Positions 3 to 64,000 of a stretch of 64,000 bases of DNA are shown here, piece after piece. The position numbers and the translations under genes are program-made. Positions within the stretch are counted from its first letter, which is position 1. Every line of letters begins with the position of its first letter. This DNA is from an uncultured delta proteobacterium (lineage in GTDB: Bacteria; Desulfobacterota; Syntrophia; Syntrophales; Smithellaceae), in the NCBI GenBank assembly GCA_963753975.1, contig CAVWEH010000001.1, positions 160,001-224,000 on the forward strand. Reading direction: 5' to 3'. The notes under the pieces are model-generated. The model saw nothing but the letters and a program-made list of their open reading frames with translations, did no database searches and was not told the origin of the DNA.

Positions 3-262
3 AGTGAGACTCAAATTGGTAGCTACCTGAAGGGTAGCTACGATACTTAAGGTAGATACTTATTTGCCCTTTCCCCGCTCACATCGCCGCTTGACAGCGG
101 CTGATTGCGCGGGAAACTGTATTCAAAAACTAAGTACATAACCTAGCCGAACTATCCCGCTACAGGCGGGGCAGTGAGACTCAAATTGGTAGCTGCCTGA
201 AAAGTAGCTACGATACTTAAGGCAGATACACTTATTTGTTCTTTTCCCGCTCACATTGCTGC
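3..262 (+). repeat. Degenerate tandem direct repeat (170-bp period) related to the hairpin element family
   Basis: AGTGAGACTCAAATTGGTAGCT...CCCGCTCACAT starts at 3 and again at 173; shares GAGACTCAAATT and GAACTATCCCGC..GCGG with the dispersed element. Confidence 0.85.
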
Positions 263-6153: not shown

Positions 6154-7953
6154 ATGTTCCTGCCGACTACTGCTTTAGAGTTAAAAAAATTAAAATGGGA
6201 TAAACTCGACATAATTCTTGTCACCGGCGATGCCTATATTGACAGCCCCTATATAGGAGTTGCCATTATCGGCCGGATTCTGTCGCATGCCGGGTATCGC
6301 GTAGGTATTATCGCCCAGCCGGATGTTAAAAGTGATGTTGATGTTCGCCGTCTGGGAGAGCCAGCACTGTTCTGGGGAATTACCGGCGGTTGTATGGATT
6401 CAATGATCGCCAACTACACGGCCATCAAGAAAAAAAGGCATGCCGATGATTTGACTGCCGGAGGAAAAAACATTCACCGTCCCGACCGCGCCGTTGTCGT
6501 GTATGCCAACCTGATTCGTCAGTATTTTAAAAATACTAGGCCACTGGTTTTGGGCGGCGTCGAGGCGAGTCTCCGCCGCGTTGCCCATTACGATTACTGG
6601 TCGGATTCCATCCGCCGCTCGATTTTATTTGATGCCCGCGCCGATATTCTTGTCTATGGCATGGCGGAAAAAGTCATACTGGAACTGGCACAAAAACTGA
6701 TGAGTGGAGAAGATACGAAAAATATCCGCGGCACTTGTTATATTGATTCTACTGCCGTACCCGGATACATTGAATTACCATCTTATGAAAAGGTTATCGC
6801 CGACAAAAGAGCTTTCATCCAAATGTTTAATTCATTTTACCGCAATAATGATCCGTCGACTGCCTGCGGTTTGTTTCAGCAGCACGGTTCCCGCTATCTG
6901 ATTCACAATCCGCCTCAACCTCATCTGACGGTTGAGGAATTGGATCAAATCTACGCTCTTGATTTCACGCGGGACGTCCACCCCTATTATAGTGAACAGG
7001 GGAAAGTTAGGGCTATGGATACAATTAAATTCTCACTGACAACACATCGCGGCTGCTATGGCGAATGCAATTTTTGTTCAATTGGCCTGCATGAAGGAAG
7101 AACGGTAATCAGCCGTAGCGACCAATCGATAATTAATGAGGCGCGCCAAATTGCCGCCCGCCCTGACTTTAGAGGCTATATTCCAGATGTGGGCGGGGCA
7201 ACAGCAAACATGTACGGGATCGACTGCCCGCGAAAAATGAGCCTAGGAGTCTGTGAGAATAAACGATGCCTTTACCCACAGGTCTGTACGTCCCTGAAGC
7301 CGGATCACAGCCGTCAGATCAATTTGCTTAGGAGTTTGCGCAAAATCAAAGGAGTAAAAAAAGTATTTGTTGCTTCCGGAATTCGCTATGATTTGCTGGA
7401 GGCCGATAAAAAACACTGCGATGCTTACCTGCAAGAGCTCGTTTTTCACCACGTCTCGGGCCAGTTAAAAGTTGCGCCGGAACACACTTCTCCCGGTGTC
7501 TTAAAACTGATGGGCAAGCCGCAGGCAAAGTCATTGACAAACTTCAAAGCGCTTTTTGAAAAAATTGATCACGGGTATGAACCACAAAGCAAGCCGCGAG
7601 GTACCACACCTTCCGCTACGCGGGATTGTTCGACTAAGCAATTTCCGCGCACTTCGTTACGGAAATTGCAGTTTCACAACAAGTCATCAGGGCAGAAACA
7701 ATTTCTTACTTATTACTTTATTGCTGCCCATCCGGGATGCGTCGAAGAAGATATGCGCGAACTAAAGGCTTTCGCCACCAGAGAACTGAAAATTAATCCG
7801 CAGCAGGTGCAAATATTTACGCCGCTTCCTTCCACTTATTCTGCTCTGATGTATTTTACCGGAATTGATCCAGCAACCGGCAGGAAGATTTTTGTGGAAA
7901 AGAATATCGCAAAAAAACAGAGACAGAAAGATATTGTTGTGGGAAGAAGTTAA
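6154..7953 (+). CDS. YgiQ/UPF0313-family radical SAM protein with a 37-aa in-frame repeat-derived insertion
   Basis: VTGDAYIDSP, CYGECNFC (CxxxCxxC), SGIRYDL, KVAPEH, YFIAAHPG. Confidence 0.9.
   Translation: MFLPTTALELKKLKWDKLDIILVTGDAYIDSPYIGVAIIGRILSHAGYRVGIIAQPDVKSDVDVRRLGEPALFWGITGGCMDSMIANYTAIKKKRHADDLTAGGKNIHRPDRAVVVYANLIRQYFKNTRPLVLGGVEASLRRVAHYDYWSDSIRRSILFDARADILVYGMAEKVILELAQKLMSGEDTKNIRGTCYIDSTAVPGYIELPSYEKVIADKRAFIQMFNSFYRNNDPSTACGLFQQHGSRYLIHNPPQPHLTVEELDQIYALDFTRDVHPYYSEQGKVRAMDTIKFSLTTHRGCYGECNFCSIGLHEGRTVISRSDQSIINEARQIAARPDFRGYIPDVGGATANMYGIDCPRKMSLGVCENKRCLYPQVCTSLKPDHSRQINLLRSLRKIKGVKKVFVASGIRYDLLEADKKHCDAYLQELVFHHVSGQLKVAPEHTSPGVLKLMGKPQAKSLTNFKALFEKIDHGYEPQSKPRGTTPSATRDCSTKQFPRTSLRKLQFHNKSSGQKQFLTYYFIAAHPGCVEEDMRELKAFATRELKINPQQVQIFTPLPSTYSALMYFTGIDPATGRKIFVEKNIAKKQRQKDIVVGRS
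7568..7678 (-). repeat. Hairpin element family 1, copy E (in frame inside the radical SAM gene)
   Basis: Reverse complement TGTGAAACTGCAATTTCCG...CGGAAATTGC..AGTCGAACAATCCCGCGTAGCGG...CATACCCGTGAT aligns with copies at 27539 and 50613. Confidence 0.9.
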
Positions 7954-13409: not shown

Positions 13410-13658
13410 ATTATTGCGCGCCCTTTGGTTGCGCACCCGGTCAAAGGATACCGAGACGGCAATGAAGCTCCAATTTCAAAAGCGAAGTGCATTGAAATTG
13501 GCAAGCTGAATTGTCCAGCTTAAGCTCTGGTAAGGAGGAGGTTCCGCAGGCGTATTTGACATACGTCGAGGATGCTGACGATCCGGCATACGCCGGACAG
13601 GCTCCGCCAACAAGGTTAGCCAAAGAACGGAAGCGCATCCCGAAGGAAAGCGCATAAT
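13410..13658 (+). repeat. Repeat family 2 copy interrupted by a family-1 hairpin module (13463-13531)
   Basis: ATACCGAGACGGCAA[insert]GGAGG...GCAGGCGTA..TACGTCGAGGA..GCCAACAAGG aligns with the reverse complement of 29679-29803. Confidence 0.75.
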
Positions 13659-25907: not shown

Positions 25908-27160
25908 GTTCGCACCTGTCCGTTGCCGTAAATTATAAATTTTGTTGTTGTCAATTCTTCCAGCCCCATCGGCCCGAAGGCATGAAGCTTGGTCGTGGAG
26001 ATGCCGATTTCTGCGCCTAATCCCAACTCAAAGCCATCGCTGAAACGTGTGGAGGCATTGACCAGCACGGTCGACGAATTGACCTCGTTTAAAAAGCGTT
26101 GAGAATTGTTATAGTCATTTGTTATTATGGACTCCGTATGTAGGGAACCGTATTTTTCAATATGAGCGATGGCTTCGTCAATACTATCCACGACCTTCAC
26201 CGCCAGAATCAAATCGAGATACTCGGCAAACCAGTCGTCTTCGGTCGCGGCCTCAATATTTTTTAAGATCGATCTTGCTTTTTCGCATCCCCTGAGGACG
26301 ACGCCGGCTTTTTGCAATTTAGAGGCTACCTGGGGCAAAAACTCACGGGCAATGTCTTTGTGCACCAGTAGAGTTTCCATAGCATTGCAAACACCCGGGC
26401 GTTGAACTTTGGCGTTGAAACAAATATTAACGGCCATATCCTCGTCGGCCTGCGCGTCCACAAAAATATGACAGACCCCTTTGTAGTGCTTGATTACGGG
26501 TATTTTGGATTGGTTAACTACGGCGCGAATCAATTCTTCTCCGCCGCGAGGAATTATCAAATCAATGTATTCATCCAATTGCAGCATTGCCGAGACAGCT
26601 TCACGGTCAGTCAGCCCAATAACTTGAATCGCCGCCGTGGGCAGGGAGTTTTTGCGCAAAACCTCTTGCAGGATTGTGGCTATTGCCAAATTGGAATTAA
26701 TTGCTTCGGAACCGCCCCGTAAAATTACCGCGTTTCCGGATTTGAGGCAAAGAGCGGAGGCATCGACAGTAACATTGGGGCGCGATTCGTAAATGATGCC
26801 GATAACTCCCAGGGGAATACGCATCCTGCCCACCAGAAGGCCGTTGGGACGGCGCCACATAGAAGTTACCTTGCCCACAGGATCGGGCAGACGTGCCACT
26901 TCCCTTAATCCTTGCACCATCGATTCAATCGTAGATTTTTCCAGACTGAGACGGTCAATCATGGCTGGGGGAAGTCCTGATTGCTTGGCTTGGGAAATAT
27001 CTTTGGAGTTTTCCGCCAGAAGGAAATCACGATTACGGTCAAGTTCAACTGCCATTTGCAAGAGAGCATTATTTTTGACCGCCGATGTCACACGGGAAAT
27101 GCTTCGTGCCGCTGCCAGTGCGTCCCGGGCGATTTGTTTCATTGAATTTTTTATATCCAT
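25904..27160 (-). CDS. proA: Gamma-glutamyl phosphate reductase
   Basis: [51 protein letters not shown]. Confidence 0.96.
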
Positions 27161-27182
27161 GAAGTATCCTACCGCTTAAAAA

Positions 27183-27375
27183 ATCACGGGAACCCCCAAT
27201 TCAAGCTGCGGGGTCCCCTCCGCTTTGCGGGATTGTCCACCGCTTCCAAGCGGTATAATTCGACTTGCAAATTTCAGTTCACTGCGTTTCTGAAATTTGA
27301 GTCTCATTACAACTTGCCGATTCCGACGTGTGACCTTCAGGTTATATGCTTCACTTTCGGAATTGGAGTTTCGCA
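27183..27375 (-). repeat. Hairpin element family 1, copy C (with nested 72-bp module 27238-27309)
   Basis: Near-identical to 63841-63978 over most of its length; ends CCCGTGAT. Confidence 0.92.
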
Positions 27376-27538
27376 AATAAATATCTTGCATTTTTCCCAA
27401 TTATTGATAAAAGCCGCCTCATTTAATGAGGGTTGGGTAACTTTTTTATATATGATATAAGAAATTTGCCAATAATCAATAATTGTCTTAATTTACAGGA
27501 CAATAATTTTTGTGTCAAGACCTTTGCCGGGATAGAAA

Positions 27539-27650
27539 ATCACGGGTATGAAAACCCAAAGCAAGCTGCGGAATATTATACCCTCCGCTTTGCGGGATTG
27601 TTCAACTTGCCAATTCCGCTACGCTTCGCTTTCGAAATTGGAGTTTCACA
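27539..27650 (-). repeat. Hairpin element family 1, copy D (core form)
   Basis: Reverse complement TGTGAAACTCCAATTTCG..GCGAAGC..GGAATTGGCAAGTTGAACAATCCCGCAAAGCGGAGGGTAT...CATACCCGTGAT. Confidence 0.92.
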
Positions 27651-27657
27651 AATAAAC

Positions 27658-28725
27658 ATGAATAGGATAAGAGTTAAAGCTGGTGAGCGAGTTTACAAAA
27701 TTATCAAGGATGGCGGTTTTGATCTAAATTCCGTTTCGACGTATTATGGGGCGGCAGTAGGGCCAAGATGGTTGATTGCCAGTGGCTTTGATTTAACTCT
27801 CTTGAAAGGCGGATTTTTAGGCCGTTCCAGAGCAGTTAATTTGGTTGGTTCCTCTGCCGGAGCGTGGCGTTTCGCCGCCTGGCTACAACCGGAAGCTGCG
27901 CAATGTTATCAGAAACTTTTAAATGCCTATATAAATACAAGATACTTCCGAAAAGATAATCCTTCCAGCGTGTTGCAAAAAATTACCGGCCTCATTAATG
28001 AATATCTGGAAGACGACGCGTTGCCTTTTGCTTTAGCGAATAAAAGGTATCGTTTAGCCATAATTACCGCCCGGTCACGCGGTCTTGTTGCTTCAGAAAC
28101 TCAGTGGTTACAGAAAGTAGGTTTGGTAACTTGCTATTTATTTAATCGCCTCAGCCGCAATAATATTTACCATTTTGCGGAGAGGGTTGTATTTTATAAT
28201 TGTTCCATGCCGCCTCCCTTTTGTTTACAGCCGCAGTTCCGCGGCCGCTATGTAAGAATCAATGAAATCAATTTTAAGTACGCGGTAATGGCATCGGGAG
28301 CCATACCTCTTGTTGTTGCCGGCGTGCGCAACATTTATGGTGCTCCACGCGGCATTTACCGTGACGGCGGGCTCATTGATTATCATCTTACGCACCAATT
28401 TGCCGCTAAAGAAAACGAAACAGTGCTTTTCTTTCATCATCAGGAACGGATCATTCCGGGCTGGCTCGATAAAAATCTGATGCACCGTGTGCCGGACGAG
28501 GAAACATTAAGCAATGTCTTGATGGTATTTCCCACACAAAATTTTGTGGAAAAGCTTCCGGGTGAAAAAGTTCCCGAACGCGCTGATTTTCTCGCCTACC
28601 TTGATGATCAGGAAACAAGAATTAAAAATTGGTATAAAGCCGTGGAATTGTCTGCCCCGCTGGGCGAGGATTTTATAGAATTGGTGGAAAGCGGCAGGCT
28701 AAAGGACGTGGTCGAAAGACTCTAA
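27658..28725 (+). CDS. Patatin-like phospholipase family protein
   Basis: GSSAG nucleophile elbow, ASGAIP, DGG; upstream part of the listed ORF is repeat-derived. Confidence 0.8.
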   Translation: MNRIRVKAGERVYKIIKDGGFDLNSVSTYYGAAVGPRWLIASGFDLTLLKGGFLGRSRAVNLVGSSAGAWRFAAWLQPEAAQCYQKLLNAYINTRYFRKDNPSSVLQKITGLINEYLEDDALPFALANKRYRLAIITARSRGLVASETQWLQKVGLVTCYLFNRLSRNNIYHFAERVVFYNCSMPPPFCLQPQFRGRYVRINEINFKYAVMASGAIPLVVAGVRNIYGAPRGIYRDGGLIDYHLTHQFAAKENETVLFFHHQERIIPGWLDKNLMHRVPDEETLSNVLMVFPTQNFVEKLPGEKVPERADFLAYLDDQETRIKNWYKAVELSAPLGEDFIELVESGRLKDVVERL

Positions 28726-28748
28726 ACAAACTTGCCACCCCTCAAATA

Positions 28749-29675
28749 ATGGATTTATCAGATAGCGTTTTCGCACTCAAAGAAATATTCGAGGATTGCG
28801 TGCTTTGTCCCCGCCAGTGTCATGTCGACCGTACCAGAGGAGAATTAGGCTATTGCCGCCTGCCGGCGAAGATCGTTATGGATTGCGCGCTGGCGCATCA
28901 CGGCGAGGAGCCGCCGCTATCCGGGAAAAACGGTGCAGGTACTATCTTTTTTTCTTCGTGCAATTTGGGCTGCATCTATTGTCAAAATTATCAAATATCG
29001 CACAATACCTGCGGTAAAGAGCTCAGCGTAAGCCAAATGGCCGATGTAATGTTGGATTTGCAGGAACGTCATTGCCACAATATTGAGCCGGTGACACCGA
29101 CACCGCAAACGCCGCTAATTATGGATGCTCTTCTTCTAGCGCGTAACAGTGGGCTTACGATTCCTTTCGTCTATAATTGCGGTGGCTACGAAAATCCGGA
29201 AATTATCAAAATGCTTTCGGGCATGGTGGAAATTTATCTGCCGGATTTCAAATACGGCCTGGAAGAGGACGCCGTGGTATTTTCTTCGGCGCCGCGGTAT
29301 CCGCGATTTGCACTGGATTCTTTAAAAGAAATGGTGCGTCAGGTAGGCGACGATTTGGAGCTGGAAAATGATGTGGCGAAAAAAGGAGTAATTGTCCGCC
29401 ATTTGGTTTTGCCCGGCAGAATGGAAAACTCGAAAGAAGCTCTTAGGCTCATCAAAAAGGAAATATCCACATCGGTTCCCATAAGCCTCATGTCTCAGTA
29501 CACGCCTATGGACAAGGTACGTCAGCATCCGCTTTTGGGACGCCGAATCACAAAAAACGAGTACAAGCAAATTTTGGATTACGCGCTGAAATTAGGTTTT
29601 GAAAATCTTTTTGTTCAAGAAGTAAACAATTTCAAGCTAATTCCCGATTTTGACAGAGATAATCCCTTTGATTAA
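28749..29675 (+). CDS. PflX-like radical SAM protein
   Basis: CVLCPRQC, HHGEEPPLSG..G.GTIFF, CNLGCIYC, YLPDFKY, RHLVLPG. Confidence 0.9.
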   Translation: MDLSDSVFALKEIFEDCVLCPRQCHVDRTRGELGYCRLPAKIVMDCALAHHGEEPPLSGKNGAGTIFFSSCNLGCIYCQNYQISHNTCGKELSVSQMADVMLDLQERHCHNIEPVTPTPQTPLIMDALLLARNSGLTIPFVYNCGGYENPEIIKMLSGMVEIYLPDFKYGLEEDAVVFSSAPRYPRFALDSLKEMVRQVGDDLELENDVAKKGVIVRHLVLPGRMENSKEALRLIKKEISTSVPISLMSQYTPMDKVRQHPLLGRRITKNEYKQILDYALKLGFENLFVQEVNNFKLIPDFDRDNPFD

Positions 29676-29678
29676 TTG

Positions 29679-29803
29679 ATACCAATTCGCACTCATTCGT
29701 CTACCTTTGTTGGCATCGTCATCGGCTCCTCGACGTATTGTACTATACGACTGCGTCGCCTTTTCCTTGCCGCCTCGGTATACTTTTGACTGCACATTGG
29801 TAT
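29679..29803. repeat. Repeat family 2, MITE-like 125-bp element with terminal inverted repeats
   Basis: Ends ATACCAATTCGCA / TGCACATTGGTAT; core CTCCTCGACGTA..TACG.CTGCGTCGCC shared with the copies at 13.5 kb and 19.4 kb. Confidence 0.75.
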
Positions 29804-29859
29804 AAATTGCGTTTGAGTGGATAACGAAAAAATCAGCCGGAGTAAACGATCAGCTCTGT

Positions 29860-30186
29860 TTATCTACCTTCGCGTTCACTTTTCCACATTATTATTACTT
29901 TTCTAGCAAGAAAAAATACCAAAACAGTATTTATAATTGCACATATTAGCAGAATTATTTTTTTATCAACATGTACGAATTCAAAATTAAATATAACTTC
30001 TATTAAATTGAGAGGAAATGCTATGAGAAAGCTCCACGGCATCGTTAATATACCTATGAACATGGCGGAAAATTTGTCCCCAGGTCGTGATATCATGAAA
30101 GAAAATGCCCAAACGCACGATACAACATATAGGATACATAATATGCTGGGCACCAATAACTCCCGTTTGAACATGTCAAACCTCAT
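29860..30186 (-). CDS. Hypothetical small membrane protein
   Basis: 108-aa ORF with three hydrophobic segments. Confidence 0.55.
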   Translation of the reverse strand: MRFDMFKRELLVPSILCILYVVSCVWAFSFMISRPGDKFSAMFIGILTMPWSFLIAFPLNLIEVIFNFEFVHVDKKIILLICAIINTVLVFFLARKVIIMWKSEREGR

Positions 30187-30309
30187 CTTGAACTTTCACA
30201 TGGCATAACAATTAATATACTTGGTTGATATTTTCCGGACTTTTGTGCAAGTTTACTTTATTTGATAAAAAATGAAAAGAGAAGCTTCCATAATGCTTGA
30301 TTAGTATTT

Positions 30310-31062
30310 CTAAGGCATATCAAAAATGCTAACGCCGGCTGGCGGTTGAAATTGAAACATTTTATCAGTAAGTCCGTTGTTGATGAGTATATTGGAAAAT
30401 TTTACCGAAGTGGAGTTACCGAATGTATCGTTGAAGCTAACCTGCAATATATAAAATTTATCTTTATGCACGGTGATTTGAATAGGATTGAGAATACTAT
30501 TCTTTTCGAGAGGAGTTAGCAGCAATAAATAATTTCCATTTTTGTCCAAAGCTTTAGGATCAGCATAGGTGATGGCAAAATCGTCTTTTAATTTTCCTAA
30601 ACCGGATAGAAATCTGATTAACGCTTTAGATTGGAAAATATTGTCCGCTTTTTGCCGATAGGCTGACTTTTCTTGCGGAAGATATAGCCATGCCGTATGC
30701 TGATTAATTACCAGTTTTTTTGCTCTGGGTTTTGTATAATCCCACAGCATGTTCTTCGGATTTTTGAAGAAAACGCGCCCTTCTTCTATTTCCGTCTTCT
30801 TTATCGATCTAACCGTTGTTTCTTGAAGAAAATTAGCCTTAAAATCCCCCGTATTCTCGTAAGTATGCTGTAATTTTTGGACAACATCGTCGATTAGAGG
30901 AAGTTCTTCGGCCGGGACAATGCCGGGTAAAGATATTATCAAAAACAGAGCGACAATTAGCCAAAAACTGGCTTTAATTGATGTAACTATTTCATTTGGC
31001 TTAAGAAAATTTTTGCTTATTTTTTTATAAAAAAAATCAAAGTACGAGATCATAAATGGCAC
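30310..31062 (-). CDS. lolA: Outer-membrane lipoprotein carrier protein (start uncertain)
   Basis: FKANFLQ, G.VFFKNP..MLWDY..P, C-terminal FQFQPPAGV. Confidence 0.82.
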   Translation of the reverse strand: MPFMISYFDFFYKKISKNFLKPNEIVTSIKASFWLIVALFLIISLPGIVPAEELPLIDDVVQKLQHTYENTGDFKANFLQETTVRSIKKTEIEEGRVFFKNPKNMLWDYTKPRAKKLVINQHTAWLYLPQEKSAYRQKADNIFQSKALIRFLSGLGKLKDDFAITYADPKALDKNGNYLLLLTPLEKNSILNPIQITVHKDKFYILQVSFNDTFGNSTSVKFSNILINNGLTDKMFQFQPPAGVSIFDMP

Positions 31063-31220
31063 ATTTTTTTCTAGGGAGTTTATATCTGTTTCTTTTGCTT
31101 CCTTATAAGTGGCGGTGATGACAGGGTATATTTATAAACAATTGATTTTATTTAATATTTATCTTGCTCAAACCTTAGGCAATTTGGTATAGAATCGCGC
31201 CAATTACGGACTGGCGGGGA

Positions 31221-31266
31221 TTATCAACAGTGATATCAACAGCCTTTTCCACAGATTTGTGGAATA
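31221..31266. promoter_or_regulatory. Cluster of DnaA-box-like 9-mers
   Basis: TTATCAACA (31221), ATATCAACA (31233), TTTTCCACA (31245), inverted TGTGGAATA (31258). Confidence 0.45.
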
Positions 31267-31326
31267 CAAATCCAAGTGCCTGTATCCAAGGGGGAAAATC
31301 TATGGTCATCATTTTTTGGTATAGTA

Positions 31327-32404
31327 CTAGCCATGGATTTTGACGCGCCAGCCGAATTTATCTTCCTTCAATCCGTATTGGATTTGCACAATTTCATTAT
31401 ATAGTTTTTCGGCCAGAGGACCGGTTTTTCCAGAGTTGATTATATATTCTCTGCCGCGAAAATAAATTTGACCGACCGGTGAAACAATTGCCGCTGTTCC
31501 CGAGGCAAAAACTTCTTTTAGGGTGCCCTTTTTGTAAGCGGCCATAATTTCATCTACCGAGAGCGGACGCTCCGCAACTTTCACTCCAAAATGACGGGCC
31601 AGTTGAATGACGGAGTGACGAGTGACACCCGGCAGAATTGTTCCGGTGAGCGCCGGAGTAATCAGTTCATCGCCAATCACAAAAAAAATGTTGCTTGTTC
31701 CGACTTCTTCCACGTATTTCTTTTCCCTGGCATCAAGCCATAAAACCTGAGTATACCCCATATTTGTGGCAATGCGGCTGGCATAAAGGCTGGCAGCATA
31801 GTTGCCTGCTGCTTTGGTGTGGCCGGTTCCGCCGGCCGCCGCCCGCACATGCTCCTCTGAAACATAAATTTTTGTCGGCGAAAACCCCTGCGGATAATAA
31901 GCTCCCACCGGTCCGACGACAATAAAAAATAGATATTCATGAGCCGGATGAACTCCCAGTGCCGCTTCCGTGGCAATCATGGTCGGACGAATGTATAAAG
32001 ATGTTCCGGCACCGTGAGGGATCCAGTCTTTTTCCAGAATTACCAGTTTTTTCAGAGCATCGAGGAAAATATTTTCGTCAAGCGACGGCATACAAAGTCT
32101 GTCCGCGGACGCGTTCATTCTTTTGATGTTTTCCGTGGGACGAAAAAGGAAAATTTCCCCGTCTTTACCGCGATATGCTTTCAACCCTTCAAATATTTCC
32201 TGAGCATAATGAAGACACATTGCTGTAGGATCAAGCTCAAGCAGCCGGTAAGGTTCAATAATCGCATCGTACCACCCCCGGCCTTCCTTATATTTCATGT
32301 TGAAAAAATGATCGGTAAAAATTTTGCCGAAGCCAAGCTTTGATTCATCCTTCGGTTTTGCTTTCATCTTTTCCGGATTGAGCTTTAATGATTTTGATTT
32401 CCAT
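31327..32404 (-). CDS. ilvE: Branched-chain amino acid aminotransferase (+1 frameshift near the N-terminus)
   Basis: LGFGKIFTDH, LHYAQEIFEGLKAY, KAAGNY, EEVGTSN, ILPGVTR; SD GAGG plus ATG at 32404 is out of frame by one base. Confidence 0.92.
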
Positions 32405-32514
32405 AAATACCTCTTAAACCGAGTTGCCTCTATATCAGATATTACCTTAATTGGCTCTATCCGGCCACTCTTTGTTCAAAGTTTAATATATTAATATAAT
32501 TTTTGTACTTATCA

Positions 32515-34045
32515 TCAAATTAAACTGCGATCAAGAGATCGATACTGAATTGCTTCGGCTACATGAGCTGATTCGATGCTTTCCTTGTCCTTCCAGATCG
32601 GCGATCGTGCGGGAAACTTTCAATATCCGGTTTACCGCCCGGGCGCTTAATCCCAGTTTTTCAATAGCCATTTCAATGAGCTTATGCGAATCTTCGCCGA
32701 TGGGGCAAAAATTCTTTATTTGCTTCTCCGTCATGCGGGCATTACATAGAGTACTATCAACACCGAAACGTTTTTTCTGTAATTCCCGCGCATAGTTTAC
32801 GCGACTTTTGATGGTCGAGGAGGATTCCCCCAATTCTTTGTCGGAAAGTGCCCGATATTTGACCGAAGGCACTTCGATATGCATATCTATCCGATCCAAG
32901 AGTGGCCCTGATATTTTGGCTTGATACTGTCGAATTTGCTGCGCACTGCAGCGACAGGTGCGGATACGATCGCCGAAATAACCACAAGGGCAAGGATTCA
33001 TAGCGGCAACCAGCATAAATTTTGCGGGGAAAGATGCTGTTATTGCAGAACGAGTAATTGTTATGGCGCCTTCTTCCAATGGCTGACGAAGAGCTTCCAA
33101 TGCGTTTTTTTTAAACTCGGGCAGTTCATCCAAAAAAAGAACTCCTAAATGAGCAAGACTTATTTCGCCCGGCCGCGGCATCTGTCCGCCTCCAACCAGA
33201 CCGACATCGGATATTGTGTGATGCGGCGAACGAAAGGGACGTACGGCAACTAAAGATTTGTTTCTATTCAATGAACCCGCGACAGAAAATACTTTTGTTA
33301 CTTCAATAGCCTCCTCGAAAGAAATATCTGGCAATATAGTGGGGAGTCTTTTTGCCAGCATACTTTTACCGGAGCCCGGGGGGCCGATCATCAGCACATT
33401 GTGACCTCCGGCCGCCGCAATTTCCAACGCCCTCAATGCTTGCTTCTGTCCTTTAATTTCATTAAAATCGACTTCATATTGACGCGTTTTCTGAAAAATC
33501 TTGCTTATATCCAAAGAAAGAGGCTCGATATTGTGTCGTCCGTTAAAAAATTCCACAACATCCGGCAATGTTTTGATCGGGAAAACATTAATTCCTTCGA
33601 CCATAGCCGCTTCGGCAGCATTTTCTTCGGGAACGAAAACCGACTTGACACCTGTTTCCTTTGCTTTAAAGACAGCAGTCAGCACGCCGCTTACTCCTTT
33701 AATACTGCCGTCCAGCGATAATTCTCCGATAAAAAAGCAGTCACGCAAAACAGTTTCTTTAATCAATTCTTCCGCGGCTAAAATGCCTACGGCAATGGGA
33801 AGATCAAAACCGGTTCCTTCTTTCTTAATGTCCGCCGGAGCTAAATTTACGGTCACATGGCTGCGGGGAAAGCGGTAGCCGGAATTCTTTATGGCGGCTT
33901 TAATTCGGTCTCTGCTTTCTTTGACGGAAGCATCGGGCAGTCCAACAGTGGCAAATTGAGGCAGCCCCTGGGATATGTCCACTTCCACGAACACGGGGTA
34001 CGATTCCATGCCGATGACGCTCATGCTAAATACTTTAACAAACAC
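32515..34045 (-). CDS. comM: YifB/ComM Mg-chelatase-like AAA+ ATPase (+1 frameshift near the C-terminus)
   Basis: VGLPD, NLAPAD, GPPGSGKS, FRSPHH, LDELPEF, NPCPCG; canonical end HVAEAIQYR lies in another frame and stops at 32515. Confidence 0.9.
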
Positions 34046-34216
34046 TAATATTCTCCAGCTTCAGTTTTGTCAAAAATACTAGCGAATCGCAATATTTATA
34101 TCAAGTTTTTTAATTCAATAAAAAATGTGAGACTTTCTTGACTCATTAATTGCGCTATGTTAGAGTCCGCCGACATCAATTGGTTACATAATTAATTCCT
34201 GAGTTCATTAACTGCC

Positions 34217-34723
34217 ATGCGAAAATTATCCCATGTAAATAGAAAAGGTCAAGTTCAAATGGTGGATATTACAGCTAAGGGGGAGACTCTTCGCCAAGCG
34301 AAGGCTGTCGGAATTGTCCAGATGGATAGCCGGACTTTGGAGTTGATTGAAAAAGGGCAAATTGTTAAAGGGAATGTTTTGACAGCGGCAAAGATTGCGG
34401 GCATTATGGCGGCAAAAAAAACCGGAGAACTTATTCCTCTTTGCCATCCGCTGGAGGTGACCGCAGTAGAAGTAAATTTAGAAATTGACCGCAATAAATC
34501 TCAAATCATCATTCAATCGGAAGTAAAAAATATGGGCAGAACGGGCGTGGAAATGGAAGCTCTTACCGCTGTCAGTATAGCTGCCTTGACTATTTACGAT
34601 ATGTGCAAGGCGGTTGATAAGAGAATAATTATAGGAAATATCATGCTTCTGGAAAAAAGCGGCGGTAAAAGCGGCACTTTTGTTCGTGAAACTCCAATTC
34701 CGAAAGCGAAGCGTATAACCTGA
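34217..34723 (+). CDS. moaC: Cyclic pyranopterin monophosphate synthase
   Basis: LSH..MVD, AGIMAAK, LIPLCHP, TGVEMEAL, YDMCKAVD, KSGGKSG. Confidence 0.95.
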   Translation: MRKLSHVNRKGQVQMVDITAKGETLRQAKAVGIVQMDSRTLELIEKGQIVKGNVLTAAKIAGIMAAKKTGELIPLCHPLEVTAVEVNLEIDRNKSQIIIQSEVKNMGRTGVEMEALTAVSIAALTIYDMCKAVDKRIIIGNIMLLEKSGGKSGTFVRETPIPKAKRIT

Positions 34724-34903
34724 AGGTCACATGTCGGAATTGGTAAGTTGTAATGAGACCCAAACTTCAGAAACAGAGTGCATAACCTGAAGGTCATCTA
34801 CGACTGGAGCTTGCAGGTCGAATTATCCCGCACAGCGGAGGATATGATCCGTAGCTTGCTGTGGACTCGGTTTCTGAGCTTGCTTGGAAATCATATCCGT
34901 GAT
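34685..34903 (+). repeat. Hairpin element family 1, copy B (overlaps the moaC 3' end)
   Basis: CGTGAAACTCCAATTCCG...TCGGAATTGGTAAGTTGTAATGAGACC...CCCGCACAGCGG...CATATCCGTGAT. Confidence 0.9.
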
Positions 34904-34982
34904 CAGAAAGAAAAATAAAGCCATTCAATAAAACCCTCATTACGAATGGCTGGAATGATAGAATTACGTGGTCAAGCAATAA

Positions 34983-35498
34983 ATGGCACAAAATATTTTT
35001 AAAGTCAGGCGGGCTTTTCTTATACCTTTAACGGCAGTAATTGTCCTTCTGTTTCTGTTGTTGCTGATCAGTTTATTTAGAGGGCAAATGGGGGAAAGAA
35101 TAGTTCTGGCGGTTTTTTTTATTGGTTCTTTATTGACCGACATTGAAACGGCAAGAAGAGAAATTGTCGTGACCGAAGAAGGGTTGCAATTAAAAAAGTT
35201 TTTCCGGACAAAAAATTTTTTTTGGCGGGAAATCACCCATCTGGGGGTTGTGGAACTGCGCAATAAAGCCTATTTTTTATTAACAACGACCAAGGGATTT
35301 TATTTTTTCTCCAATATATTAGAAAAACACTCTTTACTTGTTCGCTCTCTTGTGGATAAGCTCGGAGCAGAAAAAGTGGAAATAGAAGTAAAAAATTATT
35401 TAGATCATCCTGTCGAGCGACTTTCTTTGATTGTTATGAGTTGGATTACGGTATTTATCATTATTGTCGTTTTAATTTTAAAATTTTTGCCAGCTTAA
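34983..35498 (+). CDS. Hypothetical membrane protein (PH-like domain possible)
   Basis: Two N-terminal TM helices, soluble beta-rich middle (W.EIT), one C-terminal TM. Confidence 0.7.
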   Translation: MAQNIFKVRRAFLIPLTAVIVLLFLLLLISLFRGQMGERIVLAVFFIGSLLTDIETARREIVVTEEGLQLKKFFRTKNFFWREITHLGVVELRNKAYFLLTTTKGFYFFSNILEKHSLLVRSLVDKLGAEKVEIEVKNYLDHPVERLSLIVMSWITVFIIIVVLILKFLPA

Positions 35499-35574
35499 AT
35501 TTAAAAAAACATATTGAGAAACACACATTTTTAATTCTTAATTTAATCTTGTCCGGAAGGGGGAACTTCAAAAA

Positions 35575-35880
35575 ATGCAATCGAAAAAGCAAAAGAGTTC
35601 AAGAGTAGTAATGAATGTGAAGGAAACCCCTTACGCGGTTGTTGAAGAAGTGTTGGAAAAAAAGCTGGAAGATGTTGCCACCGTTTTATCGGCTTCCGGC
35701 GGTCGTAAAAGTAAGCTTTACGAACAAGTTATGTCGATGGTGGAAAAAGGCTTGTTTAAAATTGCTCTGCGCCGTTCCAACTACGTGAAAAGTACGGCGG
35801 CCGTTTTTCTGGGAATTAGCCGCAATACGTTTACCGATAAAATGGTCAAATTAGGTATCAACTGTGAAAAGAATAAATAA
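35575..35880 (+). CDS. Fis-family HTH protein
   Basis: LYEQVM..VEK.L...AL......AA..LGISRNT...K. Confidence 0.8.
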   Translation: MQSKKQKSSRVVMNVKETPYAVVEEVLEKKLEDVATVLSASGGRKSKLYEQVMSMVEKGLFKIALRRSNYVKSTAAVFLGISRNTFTDKMVKLGINCEKNK

Positions 35881-35897
35881 GTACTATAAAAACATCT

Positions 35898-37166
35898 ATG
35901 ACTAGAGCTTTTAAAAAAAATCTAAACTTACCTGAAAAGGTAACTTGTCTCTTAAAGAAAGGGGTTCGGATGACGGCCCCTTTTTCTGTGGAAATCGGCG
36001 AGGAAGTAAATCCGGACAGAATTGACGGTTCTTTAATAATTTACGGTGCGGCAAGGATTTGCGGAGAAAATACGTTAATTGCTCAAGATGTAAAACTGGG
36101 ATATGAAGCGCCTGTTAATTTGATTAACTGCCAACTGGGAACGGCAGTGGAGCTCAAGGGTGGGTACTTTGCCGATTCGGTTTTCCTGGATAAGGTAGCA
36201 ATGGGTAGCAATGCACAAGTCCGCTCCGGTTGCCTTTTAGAAGAAGAATCCAGGGGAAATCACACTGTCGGTCTAAAGCAGACAATCCTATTTCCTTTCG
36301 TGACTCTGGGCAGTCTGATCAATTTTTGTGATTGCCTGATAGCGGGTGGCACAAGCCGGAAAAATCATAGCGAAGTAGGTAGTTCTTATATCCATTTCAA
36401 TTACACTCCCCAGCAGGACAAGGCAACCCCTTCTTTAATGGGAGATGTTCCGCGAGGAGTAATGTTGCGCGAAGAGCCGATATTCCTGGGCGGTCAGGGG
36501 GGGCTGGTGGGGCCGCTGCAAATAGCATACGGTATAGTTATTCCGGCAGGTGTTATTTGCCGGCAGGATTGCCTAACTGCGGGAATGATTTGCTCTCCTT
36601 CTGTTTTATCACGCGAGCGCAAAAAATTTATTCCCGGAAATTATGGTGATATTAGCCGCAAGGTTCACCACAATATAGTTTATATCGCCAATTTATTGGC
36701 TTTAAGACAGTGGTATCGCTTTGTTCGCCGCGAATTCTTTATTAGATCTAAGTACGGCGAGGCTCTATATGCCGGGACCCTTGATGTTCTAGATAAAGCC
36801 ATTGCCGAAAGAATCAGACAGATGCGACTGTTTGCGCAAAACTTGGAGAAAACAATTATGCTTGCAGAAAAAATGAAGAAAGGCTTGTCTGGTACGGCGC
36901 GGCGCAAACAAAAACAATTTATCCGCGATTGGCCGCAGATGGAGGAGCATCTATCCGGTAATAATGAGGAAGAAATTTCTTTGAAGAAAAAGGGAACGTT
37001 TATAAAAATATTACAACGCCGGTCAGGTAAGACTAATTCTTATCTGCAGACAATGCGGTCATTAACGTCCCTGGAAACCAGAGTGGGTGTAGATTGGTTG
37101 AATGATGTTGTTTGGGAGGTTGCCGCCGGGTGTATGAAAATCTCTGGCGTTCTGCGGCAAAAATAA
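35898..37166 (+). CDS. GlmU-like left-handed beta-helix acetyltransferase with no recognisable uridyltransferase domain
   Basis: Hexapeptide repeats; EVGSSYIHFNY..QDKAT...GD resembles the GlmU C-domain; directly upstream of the glmS-like gene. Confidence 0.6.
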   Translation: MTRAFKKNLNLPEKVTCLLKKGVRMTAPFSVEIGEEVNPDRIDGSLIIYGAARICGENTLIAQDVKLGYEAPVNLINCQLGTAVELKGGYFADSVFLDKVAMGSNAQVRSGCLLEEESRGNHTVGLKQTILFPFVTLGSLINFCDCLIAGGTSRKNHSEVGSSYIHFNYTPQQDKATPSLMGDVPRGVMLREEPIFLGGQGGLVGPLQIAYGIVIPAGVICRQDCLTAGMICSPSVLSRERKKFIPGNYGDISRKVHHNIVYIANLLALRQWYRFVRREFFIRSKYGEALYAGTLDVLDKAIAERIRQMRLFAQNLEKTIMLAEKMKKGLSGTARRKQKQFIRDWPQMEEHLSGNNEEEISLKKKGTFIKILQRRSGKTNSYLQTMRSLTSLETRVGVDWLNDVVWEVAAGCMKISGVLRQK

Positions 37167-50612: not shown

Positions 50613-50723
50613 TGAGAGACTCAAATTTCAAAAACGAAGTGCATTGAAATTTGTAAGTCGAACAATCCCGCACAGCGGAGGGTATAATACCCCAAAGCTC
50701 GCTTTGAGGTTCATACCCGTGAT
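50613..50723 (+). repeat. Hairpin element family 1, copy F (core form)
   Basis: TGAGAGACTCAAATTTCAA..CGAAG..TTGAAATTTGTAAGTCGAACAATCCCGCACAGCGGAGGGTAT...CATACCCGTGAT. Confidence 0.92.
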
Positions 50724-50825
50724 TAAAGAGTCCTCCGGTAACATGGAGTGTCTATTTTGCGCTACTATTGTACAAAACAATCACCGCACGGCCCACCGGA
50801 AAAACAAGGAGAAATTGACACAACT

Positions 50826-63840: not shown

Positions 63841-64000
63841 CGTGAAACTCCAATTCTGAAAGCGAAGTGAATCGGAATTGGTAAGTTGTAATGAGACTCA
63901 AATTTCAGAAACACAGTGAACTGAAATTTACAAGTCGAATTATACCGCTTGGAAGCGGTGAACAATCCCGCAAAGCGGTGGTCGTGAAACTCCAATTCTA
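63841..64000 (+). repeat. Hairpin element family 1, copy A plus start of another unit at 63983 (runs off the window)
   Basis: CGTGAAACTCCAATTCT at 63841 and 63983 (142 bp apart); nested 72-bp module at 63889-63960. Confidence 0.92.

What the first reader, a model, noticed from the sequence alone, without database searches (positions are those of the whole stretch)
27183..27650. Dispersed family of modular hairpin elements with covarying stems and no cognate enzyme in the window
Seen: at least six copies (7568-7678 -, 27183-27375 -, 27539-27650 -, 34685-34903 +, 50613-50723 +, 63841-64000 +) share the layout (T/C)GTGAAACT-[stem 1]-AGT(C/T)GAACAATCCCGC-NNN-GCGG-[stem 3, GGGTAT...ATACCC]-GTGAT, about 111 bp in the core form. 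Stem 1 changes sequence but keeps pairing: GCAATTTCCG/CGGAAATTGC (E), CAAATTTCAA/TTGAAATTTG (F), CAAATTTCAG/CTGAAATTTG (C), CCAATTTCAA/TTGAAATTGG (13.5 kb). The closing helix also covaries: ACT/AGT, GCT/AGC, ACC/GGT. Inference: structure is conserved, so this is a non-autonomous mobile element or a structured RNA/ssDNA family, at roughly one copy per 10 kb. I do not recognise it as a named family.
Basis: partly seen in the sequence, partly recalled or inferred. Interest (0 to 1): 0.82.

Follow-up and report, generated by a model that had tools for sequence, protein, structure and literature searches.

The report
IS200-like gene-less hairpin mobile elements
The flagged repeats are copies of a large family of tiny, gene-less, hairpin-built mobile DNA elements that look like stripped-down IS200-type insertion sequences; they litter one family of Smithella-like bacteria and occasionally become part of proteins.

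Summary
The window holds seven loci. The genome (2.43 Mb) holds 121 loci by nhmmer and 130 covariance-model matches. On 77 copies, 93.3% of cells pair against 83.1% when shuffled, and 30 of 38 pairs show double changes (0 of 500 shuffles reach this).

The elements are mobile DNA. Five filled/empty orthologous sites were found. Three simple insertions are exactly 111 nt, placed after TTTATT-like sequence, with no terminal inverted repeats and no target duplication beyond chance. The flank pairs with a linker behind the first hairpin, and the two covary. Loops carry the DNA mini-hairpin GCGAAGC on one strand only. The 5' end, GTGAAACTCC plus a hairpin, is also the end of real IS200 copies (Y1 transposase) elsewhere in the same bacterial family.

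Best reading (0.7): IS200/IS605-derived non-autonomous elements (PATE-like). No cognate transposase was found in this genome or identified elsewhere.

Two copies are in-frame 37-residue inserts in genes (ygiQ and a methyltransferase).

The family is confined to one bacterial family. The scan noted it earlier on other DNA (e1-2155100). I found no description of it in print.

The parts
7567..7677 (-). 111-nt core element inserted in frame, antisense, in the radical-SAM gene ygiQ (6154-7953 +). It adds 37 residues.
   Evidence: The site is filled in G000, G010, G011 and G024. It is empty in G005, G006, G003, G007, G008, G009, G014, G015 and two named MAGs.
27182..27374 (-). 193-nt composite. A 72-nt type-2 unit (TAATGAGAC...GCGGTG) is nested in a type-1 core between AAGTTG and (G)ACAAT. 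It ends 21 nt upstream of the proA start codon.
   Evidence: Covariance-model hit at 27181-27312.
27538..27649 (-). 112-nt core element. Its antisense 5' end (GGAGTTTCAC) lies 8 nt before the ATG of the + strand gene that starts at 27658.
   Evidence: (122.7 bits).
34686..34904 (+). 219-nt composite: two hairpin units with loop insertions, plus the tail. It overlaps the last codons of moaC.
50614..50724 (+). 111-nt core element, the best match to the family model. It lies between two - strand genes.
   Evidence: z = -4.55; 137.8 bits.
63842..64000 (+). Start of a nested composite of about 357 nt that runs past the window end to C1:224198.
13462..13530 (+). 69-nt minimal unit: first hairpin, linker AATTGT, second hairpin CCAGC..GCTCTGG. 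It has no tail module.
   Evidence: (47.2 bits).
3..262 (+). Two tandem copies, 170 nt apart, of a related repeat that opens with the same GTGAGACTCAAATT motif. Probably another subfamily.
   Evidence: (D7 and D19). Not followed further.

Best explanation
These are non-autonomous, gene-less derivatives of IS200/IS605-type insertion sequences (PATE-like elements).

Written 5' to 3' on the strand that folds, the core is: GTGAAACT; hairpin H, a 9-10 bp stem capped by a GCGAAGC-type DNA mini-hairpin; a linker AACAAT; a small hairpin CCCGC-NNN-GCGG; a tail hairpin GGGTAT...ATACCC; and GTGATT. Units of 70-111 nt occur alone, in strings, or nested in one another.

Inferred mechanism: a single-strand (HUH, Y1) transposase supplied in trans cuts the folded top strand at both ends. 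It then pastes the excised strand immediately 3' of a short target (TTTATT for type 1, TT-N-TA for type 2) without duplicating the target. The target is read by base pairing with the linker that follows hairpin H.

Shown here: mobility, target preference, absence of inverted repeats and of target duplication, structure conservation, flank-linker complementarity, and a left end shared with real IS200 copies.

Inferred only: the enzyme and the single-strand chemistry.

In this genome the copies are old (mostly 77-90% alike) and no transposase is present, so they are probably relics. Some have been co-opted as protein inserts or sit where a ribosome-binding site is needed.
For: (1) Mobility. There are five filled/empty pairs.
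- ygiQ: 111 nt.
- A G020 methyltransferase: 111 nt. It is empty in all 10 other genomes compared by tblastn, 7 of them also aligned at DNA level.
- G010 filled against G000 C2:571.5 kb empty: 111 nt.
- A metagenome contig filled (184 nt) against G000 C2:623.3 kb empty.
- G000 C2:605.8 kb filled against G011 empty.

(2) Target. The empty sites read TTTATT^, GATATATT^, CATTATTG^ and CTTTTA^. Of 127 full copies, 88 have ATT or ATTN just before GTGAAAC.

(3) No target duplication. A 3-nt flank repeat occurs in 36 of 127 copies against 31.8 when shuffled (maximum 41). A 4-nt repeat occurs in 8 against 6.2. The right end ATT stays constant while the left flank varies. No terminal inverted repeat is present (sequence).

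(4) Structure. 93.3% of cells pair against 83.1% shuffled. 30 of 38 pairs and 304 cells carry double changes. 0 of 500 shuffles reach this. Slid controls pair at 30-43%.

(5) Guide-like helix. In 60 of 75 units the flank plus the first two nt form at least 4 contiguous Watson-Crick pairs with the linker. The mean is 4.0 against 2.29 shuffled (maximum 2.79 in 1000). At least 8 covarying variants occur, among them ATTGT/ACAAT, TAAT/ATTA, ATCAAT/ATTGAT, TAGT/ACTA and TTCGT/ACGAA. At flank position -3 the pairs are A-T 33 and G-T 22. IS200/IS605 elements choose targets by pairing with a DNA guide in the left end and make no duplication (passages read in PMC10055086, and PMC3597680).

(6) DNA-type loops. 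GCGAAGC occurs 56 times on the top strand and 0 on the bottom in 15.8 kb of elements, against 366 in the whole genome on both strands. d(GCGAAGC) melts at 76.5 C, whereas r(GCGAAAGC) melts at 39 C (passages in PMC13037366).

(7) Shared end. A bona fide IS200 in G045 has a 146-aa TnpA (NF033573, 139.3 bits against a cut-off of 55). It begins, on the strand opposite tnpA, with GTGAAACTCC followed directly by a hairpin. Matches in other copies (G163, several at contig ends; G180) and in roughly 150-nt gene-less derivatives (G060, G152, G164, G045) begin 1-8 nt upstream of that motif. Their flank AAAG|TG pairs with CTTT after the hairpin. A second IS200 (G017) ends GTGAACTACC plus a hairpin.
Against: No Y1 transposase is present in G000, either by Pfam PF01797 or by the G045 TnpA protein. 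The genome is 95.1% complete.

Y1 genes do not track element abundance across 41 genomes of the family. G000, G010, G011 and G051 are rich in elements and have none. G018, G049, G052 and G055 have 4-7 Y1 matches but gave no match to the 40-residue peptide encoded by the ygiQ copy; G049 did give 2 covariance-model matches.

Among 24 loci holding Y1, TnpB or RT genes (144.7 kb), the model finds 6 matches in 3 loci. That is background density (nhmmer agrees).

G163, which holds several copies of the G045-type IS200, has only 1 element match. That particular IS200 is therefore not the mobiliser.

The two terminal hairpins of the element are unlike each other, whereas IS200/IS605 ends normally carry similar hairpins. 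The right end shares nothing with the IS200. An apparent GTGATC match lies 12-18 nt outside the conserved IS and is taken as coincidence.

The guide lies 3' of the hairpin, not 5' as I recall for IS608.

Orientation is not significantly biased toward the G-rich (leading) strand: 67-69 of 121, p = 0.15-0.28.

The three simple pairs leave a 3-nt junction ambiguity, because ATT stands on both sides. In some subfamilies the 5' arm of the helix lies inside a larger conserved unit, not in target DNA.

No long, gene-bearing version was seen among 81 metagenome matches.
Confidence: 0.7

Rival explanations
1. A family of structured RNAs (small RNAs or cis-regulatory leaders) whose conservation reflects RNA function. 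On this reading the dispersal is secondary.
For: Structure and covariation are strong. G-U pairs are common at two positions. Several copies lie directly upstream of start codons. One example is 27182-27374 before proA. In 10 of 103 elements, a start codon of a long ORF on the opposite strand lies within 16 nt of the element's 5' end.
Against: Orientation is unbiased relative to flanking genes in co-directional spacers: 37 same against 46 opposite. Copies sit antisense inside coding sequence. Copies nest within the stems of other copies. Outside two positions, G-T and A-C mismatches are 71 against 58. The loop motif is the DNA-stable GCGAAGC, whose RNA counterpart is far less stable. No Rfam family matches: the best E-value is 0.48.
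Confidence: 0.08
2. REP/BIME-like host elements spread by a domesticated RAYT-type Y1 transposase. The family's genomes do hold Y1-domain proteins of 225-350 residues.
For: The elements are mosaic, hairpin-built and mostly intergenic, with more than 100 copies per genome. Y1-domain genes of 225-350 residues exist in 29 of 41 family genomes. In G020 one such gene has a composite element about 330 bp from its Y1 domain.
Against: Only 1 of 20 Y1 loci has an element within 400 bp, and none is flanked on both sides. Presence of the Y1 gene and abundance of elements are uncorrelated. G000 has 121 loci and no Y1 gene.
Confidence: 0.07
3. A miniature element moved by some other, unidentified enzyme that makes a 3-bp duplication (ATT or TTG) of an A/T-rich target. 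On this reading the element runs GTGAAAC...CCCGTG.
For: In each simple filled/empty pair, the same trinucleotide stands at both junctions: ATT, ATT and TTG. No cognate Y1 enzyme was found.
Against: Across 127 copies, the left and right trinucleotides do not covary beyond composition: 36 observed against 31.8 expected. No terminal inverted repeats are present. The left end is shared with IS200 copies.
Confidence: 0.1
4. Host-selected single-strand DNA signals, for example priming or protein-binding sites on the lagging-strand template. On this reading they are kept for function and are not selfish.
For: GCGAAGC-type mini-hairpins occur at primase-dependent origins and at single-strand promoters (passages in PMC13037366). 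Structure is maintained in old copies.
Against: No significant strand bias relative to GC skew. Presence is patchy even within the genus: G003 is 95% complete and has none. The insertion polymorphisms and the nesting are typical of selfish spread.
Confidence: 0.05

Closest known systems
PATEs: gene-less derivatives of IS200/IS605 insertion sequences. Examples are those of Haloquadratum walsbyi (PMC3119063, search listing only) and Geobacillus stearothermophilus ISGst (PMC10055086, passages read).
   Same: They have no inverted repeats and no target duplication. They insert just 3' of a short A/T-rich motif (TTTAT and TTCAT in ISGst; TTTATT here). They have subterminal hairpins. The target is read by pairing with element DNA. 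They occur in many copies per genome and depend on a transposase in trans. The left terminus is shared with real IS200 copies.
   Different: No matching autonomous partner was found. The two end hairpins are unlike each other. The guide sits after the hairpin. The units are modular and nest in one another. The loops are capped by GCGAAGC mini-hairpins. No TnpB or omega-RNA association exists: TnpB is in 3 of 41 family genomes.
REP/BIME elements with RAYT transposases (PMC3479197, search listing only)
   Same: Mosaic arrays of short palindromic units that are mostly intergenic, number in the hundreds, and are linked to the HUH Y1 enzyme family.
   Different: No RAYT is flanked by these units. 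The units are longer (70-111 nt), target a defined motif and also insert in genes.
Rickettsia palindromic elements (RPE; review PMC10969869, passages read)
   Same: In-frame insertion of a palindromic element into unrelated genes, adding a conserved peptide that is retained across species.
   Different: There is no sequence relation. Only 2 clear in-gene cases were found here (ygiQ, methyltransferase), against 44 in R. conorii. Most copies here are intergenic.
BOX elements of Streptococcus pneumoniae (recalled; named in PMC10969869)
   Same: Modular build: head, a variable number of middle units, and a tail.
   Different: They are unrelated in sequence and host. The mechanism of BOX is unknown. 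No TTATT targeting is known for BOX (recalled).

Membership tests
IS200/IS605-derived non-autonomous element (PATE) | No terminal inverted repeats | tested here: met
   The 5' end is GTGAAACTCC. The reverse complement of the 3' end is AATCACGGGTA. The two are not alike.
IS200/IS605-derived non-autonomous element (PATE) | No target-site duplication | tested here: met
   Flank repeats in 127 copies are no more frequent than in shuffles. A 3-nt ATT ambiguity remains in single pairs.
IS200/IS605-derived non-autonomous element (PATE) | Insertion 3' of a specific 4-5 nt motif that abuts one end | tested here: met
   The empty sites read TTTATT^, GATATATT^ and CATTATTG^. 88 of 127 copies have ATT or ATTN before the 5' end.
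IS200/IS605-derived non-autonomous element (PATE) | Subterminal imperfect hairpins at both ends, similar to each other | tested here: inconclusive
   Hairpins are present and covary. However, the left (H) and right (tail) hairpins differ in sequence.
IS200/IS605-derived non-autonomous element (PATE) | Target or cleavage motif pairs with a guide inside the element | tested here: met
   60 of 75 units have at least 4 contiguous pairs. The mean is 4.0 against 2.29 shuffled. The guide position (3' of the hairpin) differs from IS608 as I recall it.
IS200/IS605-derived non-autonomous element (PATE) | Ends shared with an autonomous IS that encodes a Y1 TnpA | tested here: inconclusive
   The left 10 nt plus an adjacent hairpin are shared with IS200 copies in G045, G163 and G180. 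The right end is not shared. G163, with several copies of that IS200, has 1 element match.
IS200/IS605-derived non-autonomous element (PATE) | Cognate TnpA present in the same genome | tested here: not met
   G000 has no PF01797 match and no match to the G045 TnpA. This is compatible with relic copies.
IS200/IS605-derived non-autonomous element (PATE) | Orientation bias relative to replication (lagging-strand template) | tested here: inconclusive
   67-69 of 121 are co-oriented with the G-rich strand, p = 0.15-0.28. The genome is in 6 contigs and the origin is not mapped.
IS200/IS605-derived non-autonomous element (PATE) | Single-strand excision and integration by an HUH enzyme | not testable with these tools
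   This needs biochemistry or genetics.
REP/BIME with RAYT | Units flank a single-copy RAYT gene | tested here: not met
   Of 20 Y1 loci, one has an element within 400 bp and none is bracketed on both sides.
Classical MITE (DDE-derived) | Terminal inverted repeats plus target duplication | tested here: not met
Any Rfam RNA family | Match at the gathering score | tested here: not met
   Only a tRNA matches in the window. On the element region the best E-value is 0.48.

The most novel reading that the evidence does not exclude
The elements are a self-diversifying family in which a short DNA guide behind the first hairpin programs the insertion site. Subfamilies have re-targeted themselves by changing the guide; at least 8 guide/target pairs were seen. 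Because the guide resembles its own target, the elements nest in one another. On this reading they are moved by an enzyme that is not a recognisable IS200 TnpA, either a new or highly diverged single-strand transposase or a host enzyme. That would explain why no cognate Y1 gene tracks them in more than 100 genomes.
Probability: 0.2. Interest if true: 0.8.

Novelty: new variant of a known kind. Interest (0 to 1): 0.55.

Why it matters
The family gives a natural series of guide/target pairs for single-strand transposition. If the linker really sets the target, these 111-nt units are minimal, re-programmable substrates for HUH transposases.

They also show that in-frame 'palindromic element' inserts, known from Rickettsia, arise in free-living anaerobes and persist across species. 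The ygiQ insert is kept in four species of two genera.

The antisense 5' end of several copies places a GGAG just upstream of a start codon.

For annotation, about 100-270 copies per genome in Smithella-like MAGs create spurious ORFs, N-terminal extensions and assembly breaks.

Tried and rejected
**Candidate enzymes**
- IS110 DEDD transposase is not in G000.
- The TnpB zinc ribbon is not in G000 and is in only 3 of 41 family genomes.
- The single RT of G000 is retron-like, sits beside an HTH gene, and has no element nearby.
- A self-megablast of G000 found no multi-copy IS.

**A gene-bearing version of the element**
- Among 81 pattern matches in 80 metagenome loci, every match is preceded by another hairpin unit, never by an ORF.

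**Plasmids, phages and viral contigs**
- No match in any of the three.

**Expression**
- No RNA holder was listed for 26000-35900. The best DNA holders share 0.05-0.08 of the sampled words.

**Junction details**
- The trinucleotide repeats seen in single pairs were not supported as a target duplication by the 127-copy test.
- An apparent GTGATC match at the far end of the G045 IS200 lies outside the conserved IS and was dropped as coincidence.
- An integron attC reading was considered, because GTTGAAC fits GTTRRRY (recalled consensus). It was dropped: it applies to type 1 only, the copies are dispersed rather than in cassette arrays, and no test was run.

**History of the ygiQ site**
- I tried to decide between precise excision and repeated insertion. 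In the tree, the empty G005 is nested among the filled species only with weak support (0.62 and 0.78). G024, of another genus, is filled. The question stays unresolved.

**Structure of YgiQ with the insert**
There is no result.

**Other checks**
- A first regex found nothing because of a pattern error; it was corrected.
- mishandled minus-strand loci; it was corrected.
Full report
**1. Observation**

There are seven loci in the window:
- three simple cores of 111-112 nt: 7567-7677 (-), 27538-27649 (-) and 50614-50724 (+);
- three composites: 27182-27374 (-), 34686-34904 (+), and 63842 onward (+), which runs on to C1:224198;
- one 69-nt minimal unit at 13462-13530 (+).

The quoted stem variants and closing pairs are all present.

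The window is C1:160001-224000 of a 2.43-Mb genome in 6 contigs. Genome-wide counts are:
- blastn: 119 merged hits;
- nhmmer: 166 hits in 121 loci;
- a covariance model built from 8 copies: 130 matches at E <= 0.01, among 150 candidates scored.

The nearest named records for the ygiQ product are a Smithella sp. MAG and a 'Deltaproteobacteria' MAG, at 70% in the scan's best segment. By my alignment without the insert they are 75% identical. The organism is therefore Smithella-like (Syntrophales). I did not establish its name otherwise.

**2. Anatomy**

The alignments show a modular build.
- a 5' end GTGAAACT (type 1) or (TA)ATGAGAC (type 2);
- hairpin H, with a 9-10 bp stem, an internal loop and a 2-bp cap around GAA;
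- closing pairs ACT/AGT;
- a linker: AACAAT, AATTAT, AACTAT, AATTGAT and others;
- a second hairpin: CCCGC-NNN-GCGG, or longer ATCCC...GGGAT forms.

Type-1 cores add a tail, GGGTAT-(optional inner hairpin)-ATACCC-GTGATT. Units occur alone (about 70 nt), with the tail (111 nt), in strings, or nested in stems and loops of other units.

**3. Covariation**

On 77 copies (window, other G000 loci and relatives) aligned to the model, results were as follows:
- 93.3% of 2647 cells pair, against 83.1% in shuffles;
- 30 of 38 pairs and 304 cells carry changes on both sides;
- 0 of 500 shuffles reach any of the five measures;
- sliding the partner by 1-3 columns drops pairing to 30-43%.

The caveat is that the alignment was fitted to the model's structure.

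The 2-bp cap alternates G-C (34) and A-T (31).

Mismatch types are G-T/T-G 124 and A-C/C-A 59. After removing two positions where G-T is the commonest pair, the counts are 71 against 58. There is thus little sign of RNA-type wobble on one strand.

Single copies fold better than shuffles on both strands, with z from -1.4 to -5.8.

**4. DNA-type loops**

GCGAAGC occurs 56 times on the top strand of the elements and never on the bottom strand, in 15.8 kb. The whole genome holds 366 on both strands. Related caps (ACGAAGT, GCAAAGC, GCGTAGC and others) show the same asymmetry.

A 2026 review (PMC13037366, passages read) reports that d(GCGAAGC) melts at 76.5 C, whereas r(GCGAAGC)'s close RNA counterpart r(GCGAAAGC) melts at 39 C. 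It also places such mini-hairpins at single-strand replication origins and single-strand promoters.

This favours folding as single-stranded DNA of one particular strand.

**5. Where the copies lie**

I built a crude longest-ORF gene map. Against it, 73 loci are intergenic, 36 touch an ORF edge and 12 lie 'inside' ORFs. Most of the 12 are short or over-extended ORFs.

Orientation relative to neighbours is unbiased. In co-directional spacers there are 37 same and 46 opposite. There are 19 loci in divergent spacers and 15 in convergent ones. Four loci spanned by a long ORF were set aside.

Orientation relative to local GC skew is also not significant: 67-69 of 121, p = 0.15-0.28.

**6. Mobility and target**

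*(a) ygiQ.* The gene (6154-7953) matches the YgiQ family model in two stretches, the first ending at residue 474, where the element begins. Exactly 37 residues (111 nt) are extra. The site is filled in G000, G010 and G011, and in G024, which belongs to another genus. It is empty in G005, G006, G003, G007, G008, G009, G014, G015 and two named MAGs.

*(b) A methyltransferase of G020.* It carries a 111-nt insert that is absent from all 10 other genomes compared by tblastn, 7 of which were also aligned at DNA level. In gene orientation the empty site reads GAGCAA|AATAAA. The filled site reads GAGCAA[AATCACGGG...GGAGTTTCAC]AATAAA.

*(c) G010 against G000.* G010 is filled and G000 C2:571.5 kb is empty. 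The insert is again 111 nt. In element orientation the empty site reads GATATATT^GTGAAAAATT.

*(d) A metagenome contig against G000.* The contig carries a 184-nt composite and G000 C2:623.3 kb is empty. The empty site reads CATTATTG^CTCCAG.

*(e) G000 against G011.* G000 C2:605.8 kb holds a type-2 composite that G011 lacks. G021 holds a different unit at almost the same point.

In element orientation the simple insertions therefore follow TTTATT-like sequence.

Each simple pair leaves a 3-nt ambiguity, because ATT (or TTG) stands at both junctions. Across 127 distinct full copies, however, flank repeats are no commoner than in shuffles: 36 against 31.8 for 3 nt, and 8 against 6.2 for 4 nt. The right end stays ATT while the left flank varies among ATT, GTT, TTT and ATC.

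I therefore read the element as GTGAAAC...GTGATT, inserted 3' of the target without duplication.

No terminal inverted repeat exists.

**7. A guide-like helix**

RNAalifold pairs the last three flank bases plus GT with ACAAT in the linker.

In 75 units found by a regular expression in G000, 60 have at least 4 contiguous Watson-Crick pairs between flank-plus-first-two-bases and the linker. The mean is 4.0 against 2.29 in shuffles (maximum 2.79 in 1000). The variants covary: ATTGT/ACAAT, TAAT/ATTA, ATCAAT/ATTGAT, ATTAAT/ATTAAT, TAGT/ACTA, CAGT/ACTG, TTCGT/ACGAA and TCGT/ACGA.

In the 77-copy alignment, one pair of this helix is T-A 36 and A-T 26, another is G-C 54 and A-T 19, and the outermost is A-T 33 and G-T 22.

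IS200/IS605 elements insert 3' of a tetra- or pentanucleotide in single-stranded DNA. They recognise it by pairing with a DNA guide in the left end, make no duplication, and excise without a scar (PMC3597680 and PMC10055086, passages read).

Two caveats apply. In strings of units, the 5' arm of the helix is supplied by the linker of the preceding unit. In one subfamily it lies in a conserved 20-nt leader. It is therefore target-derived only in simple copies. Because linkers such as AATTAT resemble the targets, units insert into each other's linkers, which explains the strings.

**8. Link to real IS200 elements**

Y1 transposase genes occur in 29 of 41 genomes of the family.

One of them, in G045, is a classic IS200. 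Its TnpA is 146 aa and matches NF033573 at 139.3 bits. On the strand opposite tnpA it begins with GTGAAACTCC followed directly by the hairpin CCCCGCGG-CAAG-CCGCGGGG. An exact 10-mer at that place is expected about 0.006 times in the locus by chance (my estimate).

DNA search found relatives in 9 of 101 family genomes, none of them among the 14 genomes of the window's genus:
- an 80%-identical full copy and several contig-end fragments in G163;
- a fragment in G180;
- gene-less derivatives of roughly 150 nt in G060, G152, G164 and G045.

The matches in these copies all begin 1-8 nt upstream of the same motif. Their flank AAAG|TG pairs with CTTT or CTTG after the hairpin.

A second IS200, in G017, ends GTGAACTACC plus a hairpin.

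The left end and the flank-guide architecture of the flagged family are thus those of a local IS200 clade.

**9. What speaks against a simple story**

- G000 has no Y1 gene, no IS110 or TnpB, and no multi-copy IS.
- Y1 presence does not follow element abundance.
- 24 loci holding Y1, TnpB or RT genes (144.7 kb) contain 6 matches in 3 loci, which is background density.
- G163, with several copies of the G045-type IS200, has a single element match, while G180 and G152 have 101 and 107.
- The right end is not shared with the IS200, and the two end hairpins differ.
- No gene-bearing version appeared among 81 metagenome matches.
- Copies are old. Within G000 most pairs are 77-90% alike, with one pair at 95% over 110 nt. 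In G020 the best other copy is 97% over 96 nt, then 90%.

I conclude that the copies in this genome are relics of a partner that is extinct or was not sampled.

**10. Distribution**

By the covariance model, matches occur in 35 of 43 other genomes of the family. They occur in 7 of 77 genomes of other families of the class, with 1-3 matches each; contamination or transfer was not resolved. They occur in 0 of 148 genomes outside the family in a phylum-wide sample of 150, which included G000 and one other family member.

Within the genus the distribution is patchy. G003 is 95% complete and has none.

There are no matches in plasmids, phages or viral contigs.

**11. Consequences for genes**

Both in-gene copies are antisense and read in the same frame (...NHGYEPQSK...FH|NK). 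The reason is that the target, AAT AAA in gene sense, was in that frame. The ygiQ insert has diverged about as much as the gene (82% against 80% identity between G000 and G024), so it is old and tolerated.

In the YgiQ tree, the empty G005 sits among the filled species with weak support (0.62 and 0.78), and the filled G024 lies outside the genus. Precise loss, repeated insertion or gene exchange cannot be told apart.

In 10 of 103 elements examined, a start codon of an ORF of at least 120 residues on the opposite strand lies within 16 nt of the 5' end. In clear cases (27538-27649, C2:579.3 kb and C5:620.3 kb) the only GGAG upstream is the element's own GGAGTTTCAC.

**12. Literature and earlier notes**

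The search for Smithella with 'repetitive element' returned 0 papers, and Syntrophaceae with 'miniature inverted-repeat' also returned 0. Rfam holds no matching family.

I reached the target independently. I add the no-duplication statistic, the guide covariation, the DNA-type loops, the in-frame inserts and the IS200 left-end link.

That note's claim of near-identical copies in Bacteroidales was not tested.

**13. Verdict**

The family is real, abundant and confined to one bacterial lineage. Its kind is known (IS200/IS605-derived gene-less elements), but its build is unusual and I found no description in print. The enzyme is unidentified.

Noticed in passing
window 3-262: Two tandem copies, 170 nt apart, of a different repeat. 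It opens with the same GTGAGACTCAAATT motif and contains GAACTATCCCGC. It is probably another subfamily of the same superfamily.
   Followed up: partly
window 27649-27660; also G000 C2:579.3 kb, C5:620.3 kb and C5:177.4 kb: The antisense 5' end of the element (TTGGAGTTTCAC) lies 1-12 nt before the ATG of a gene on the opposite strand. The element seems to supply the Shine-Dalgarno GGAG. This holds for 10 of 103 elements within 16 nt.
   Followed up: partly
G000 C2:429437-429970 (locus L108, 1366-2244): The genome's single reverse transcriptase is 292 aa and sits directly after a small HTH (XRE-like) gene, so it looks retron-type. No hairpin element lies nearby.
   Followed up: no
G000 C2:603927-604785 (locus L166): The G000 ortholog of the G020 methyltransferase has one extra base at GATAAATCAATCC, compared with GATAAA-CAATCC in G011. 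It then reads out of frame with stops. This is either a pseudogene or a sequencing or assembly error.
   Followed up: no
tail module of the elements, e.g. window 50686-50706: The optional inner hairpin of the tail (consensus CCCCGCAGCTTGCTTTGGGG) resembles the reverse complement of the IS200 end hairpin CCCCGCGGCAAGCCGCGGGG of G045. This could be a nested, inverted IS200-type hairpin or chance.
   Followed up: no
G073:C57:10316-10432 (locus L201); G134:C58; G128: Near-perfect single copies (up to 135.8 bits) occur in genomes of other families of the order, which otherwise have 1-3 matches. This could be horizontal transfer or foreign contigs in those bins.
   Followed up: no
G021 locus L161 about 3370-3480, against G000 L166 3357-3546: Two different units (TAGTGAGAC... 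in G021, TAATGAGAC... in G000) sit at almost the same point after the same gene. This suggests a recurrent insertion spot.
   Followed up: no
G000 C5:168169-169897 and C5:176953-178034: A duplicated segment (419 bp at 90% and 324 bp at 97%) carries a gene, a hairpin element and another gene in both copies.
   Followed up: no
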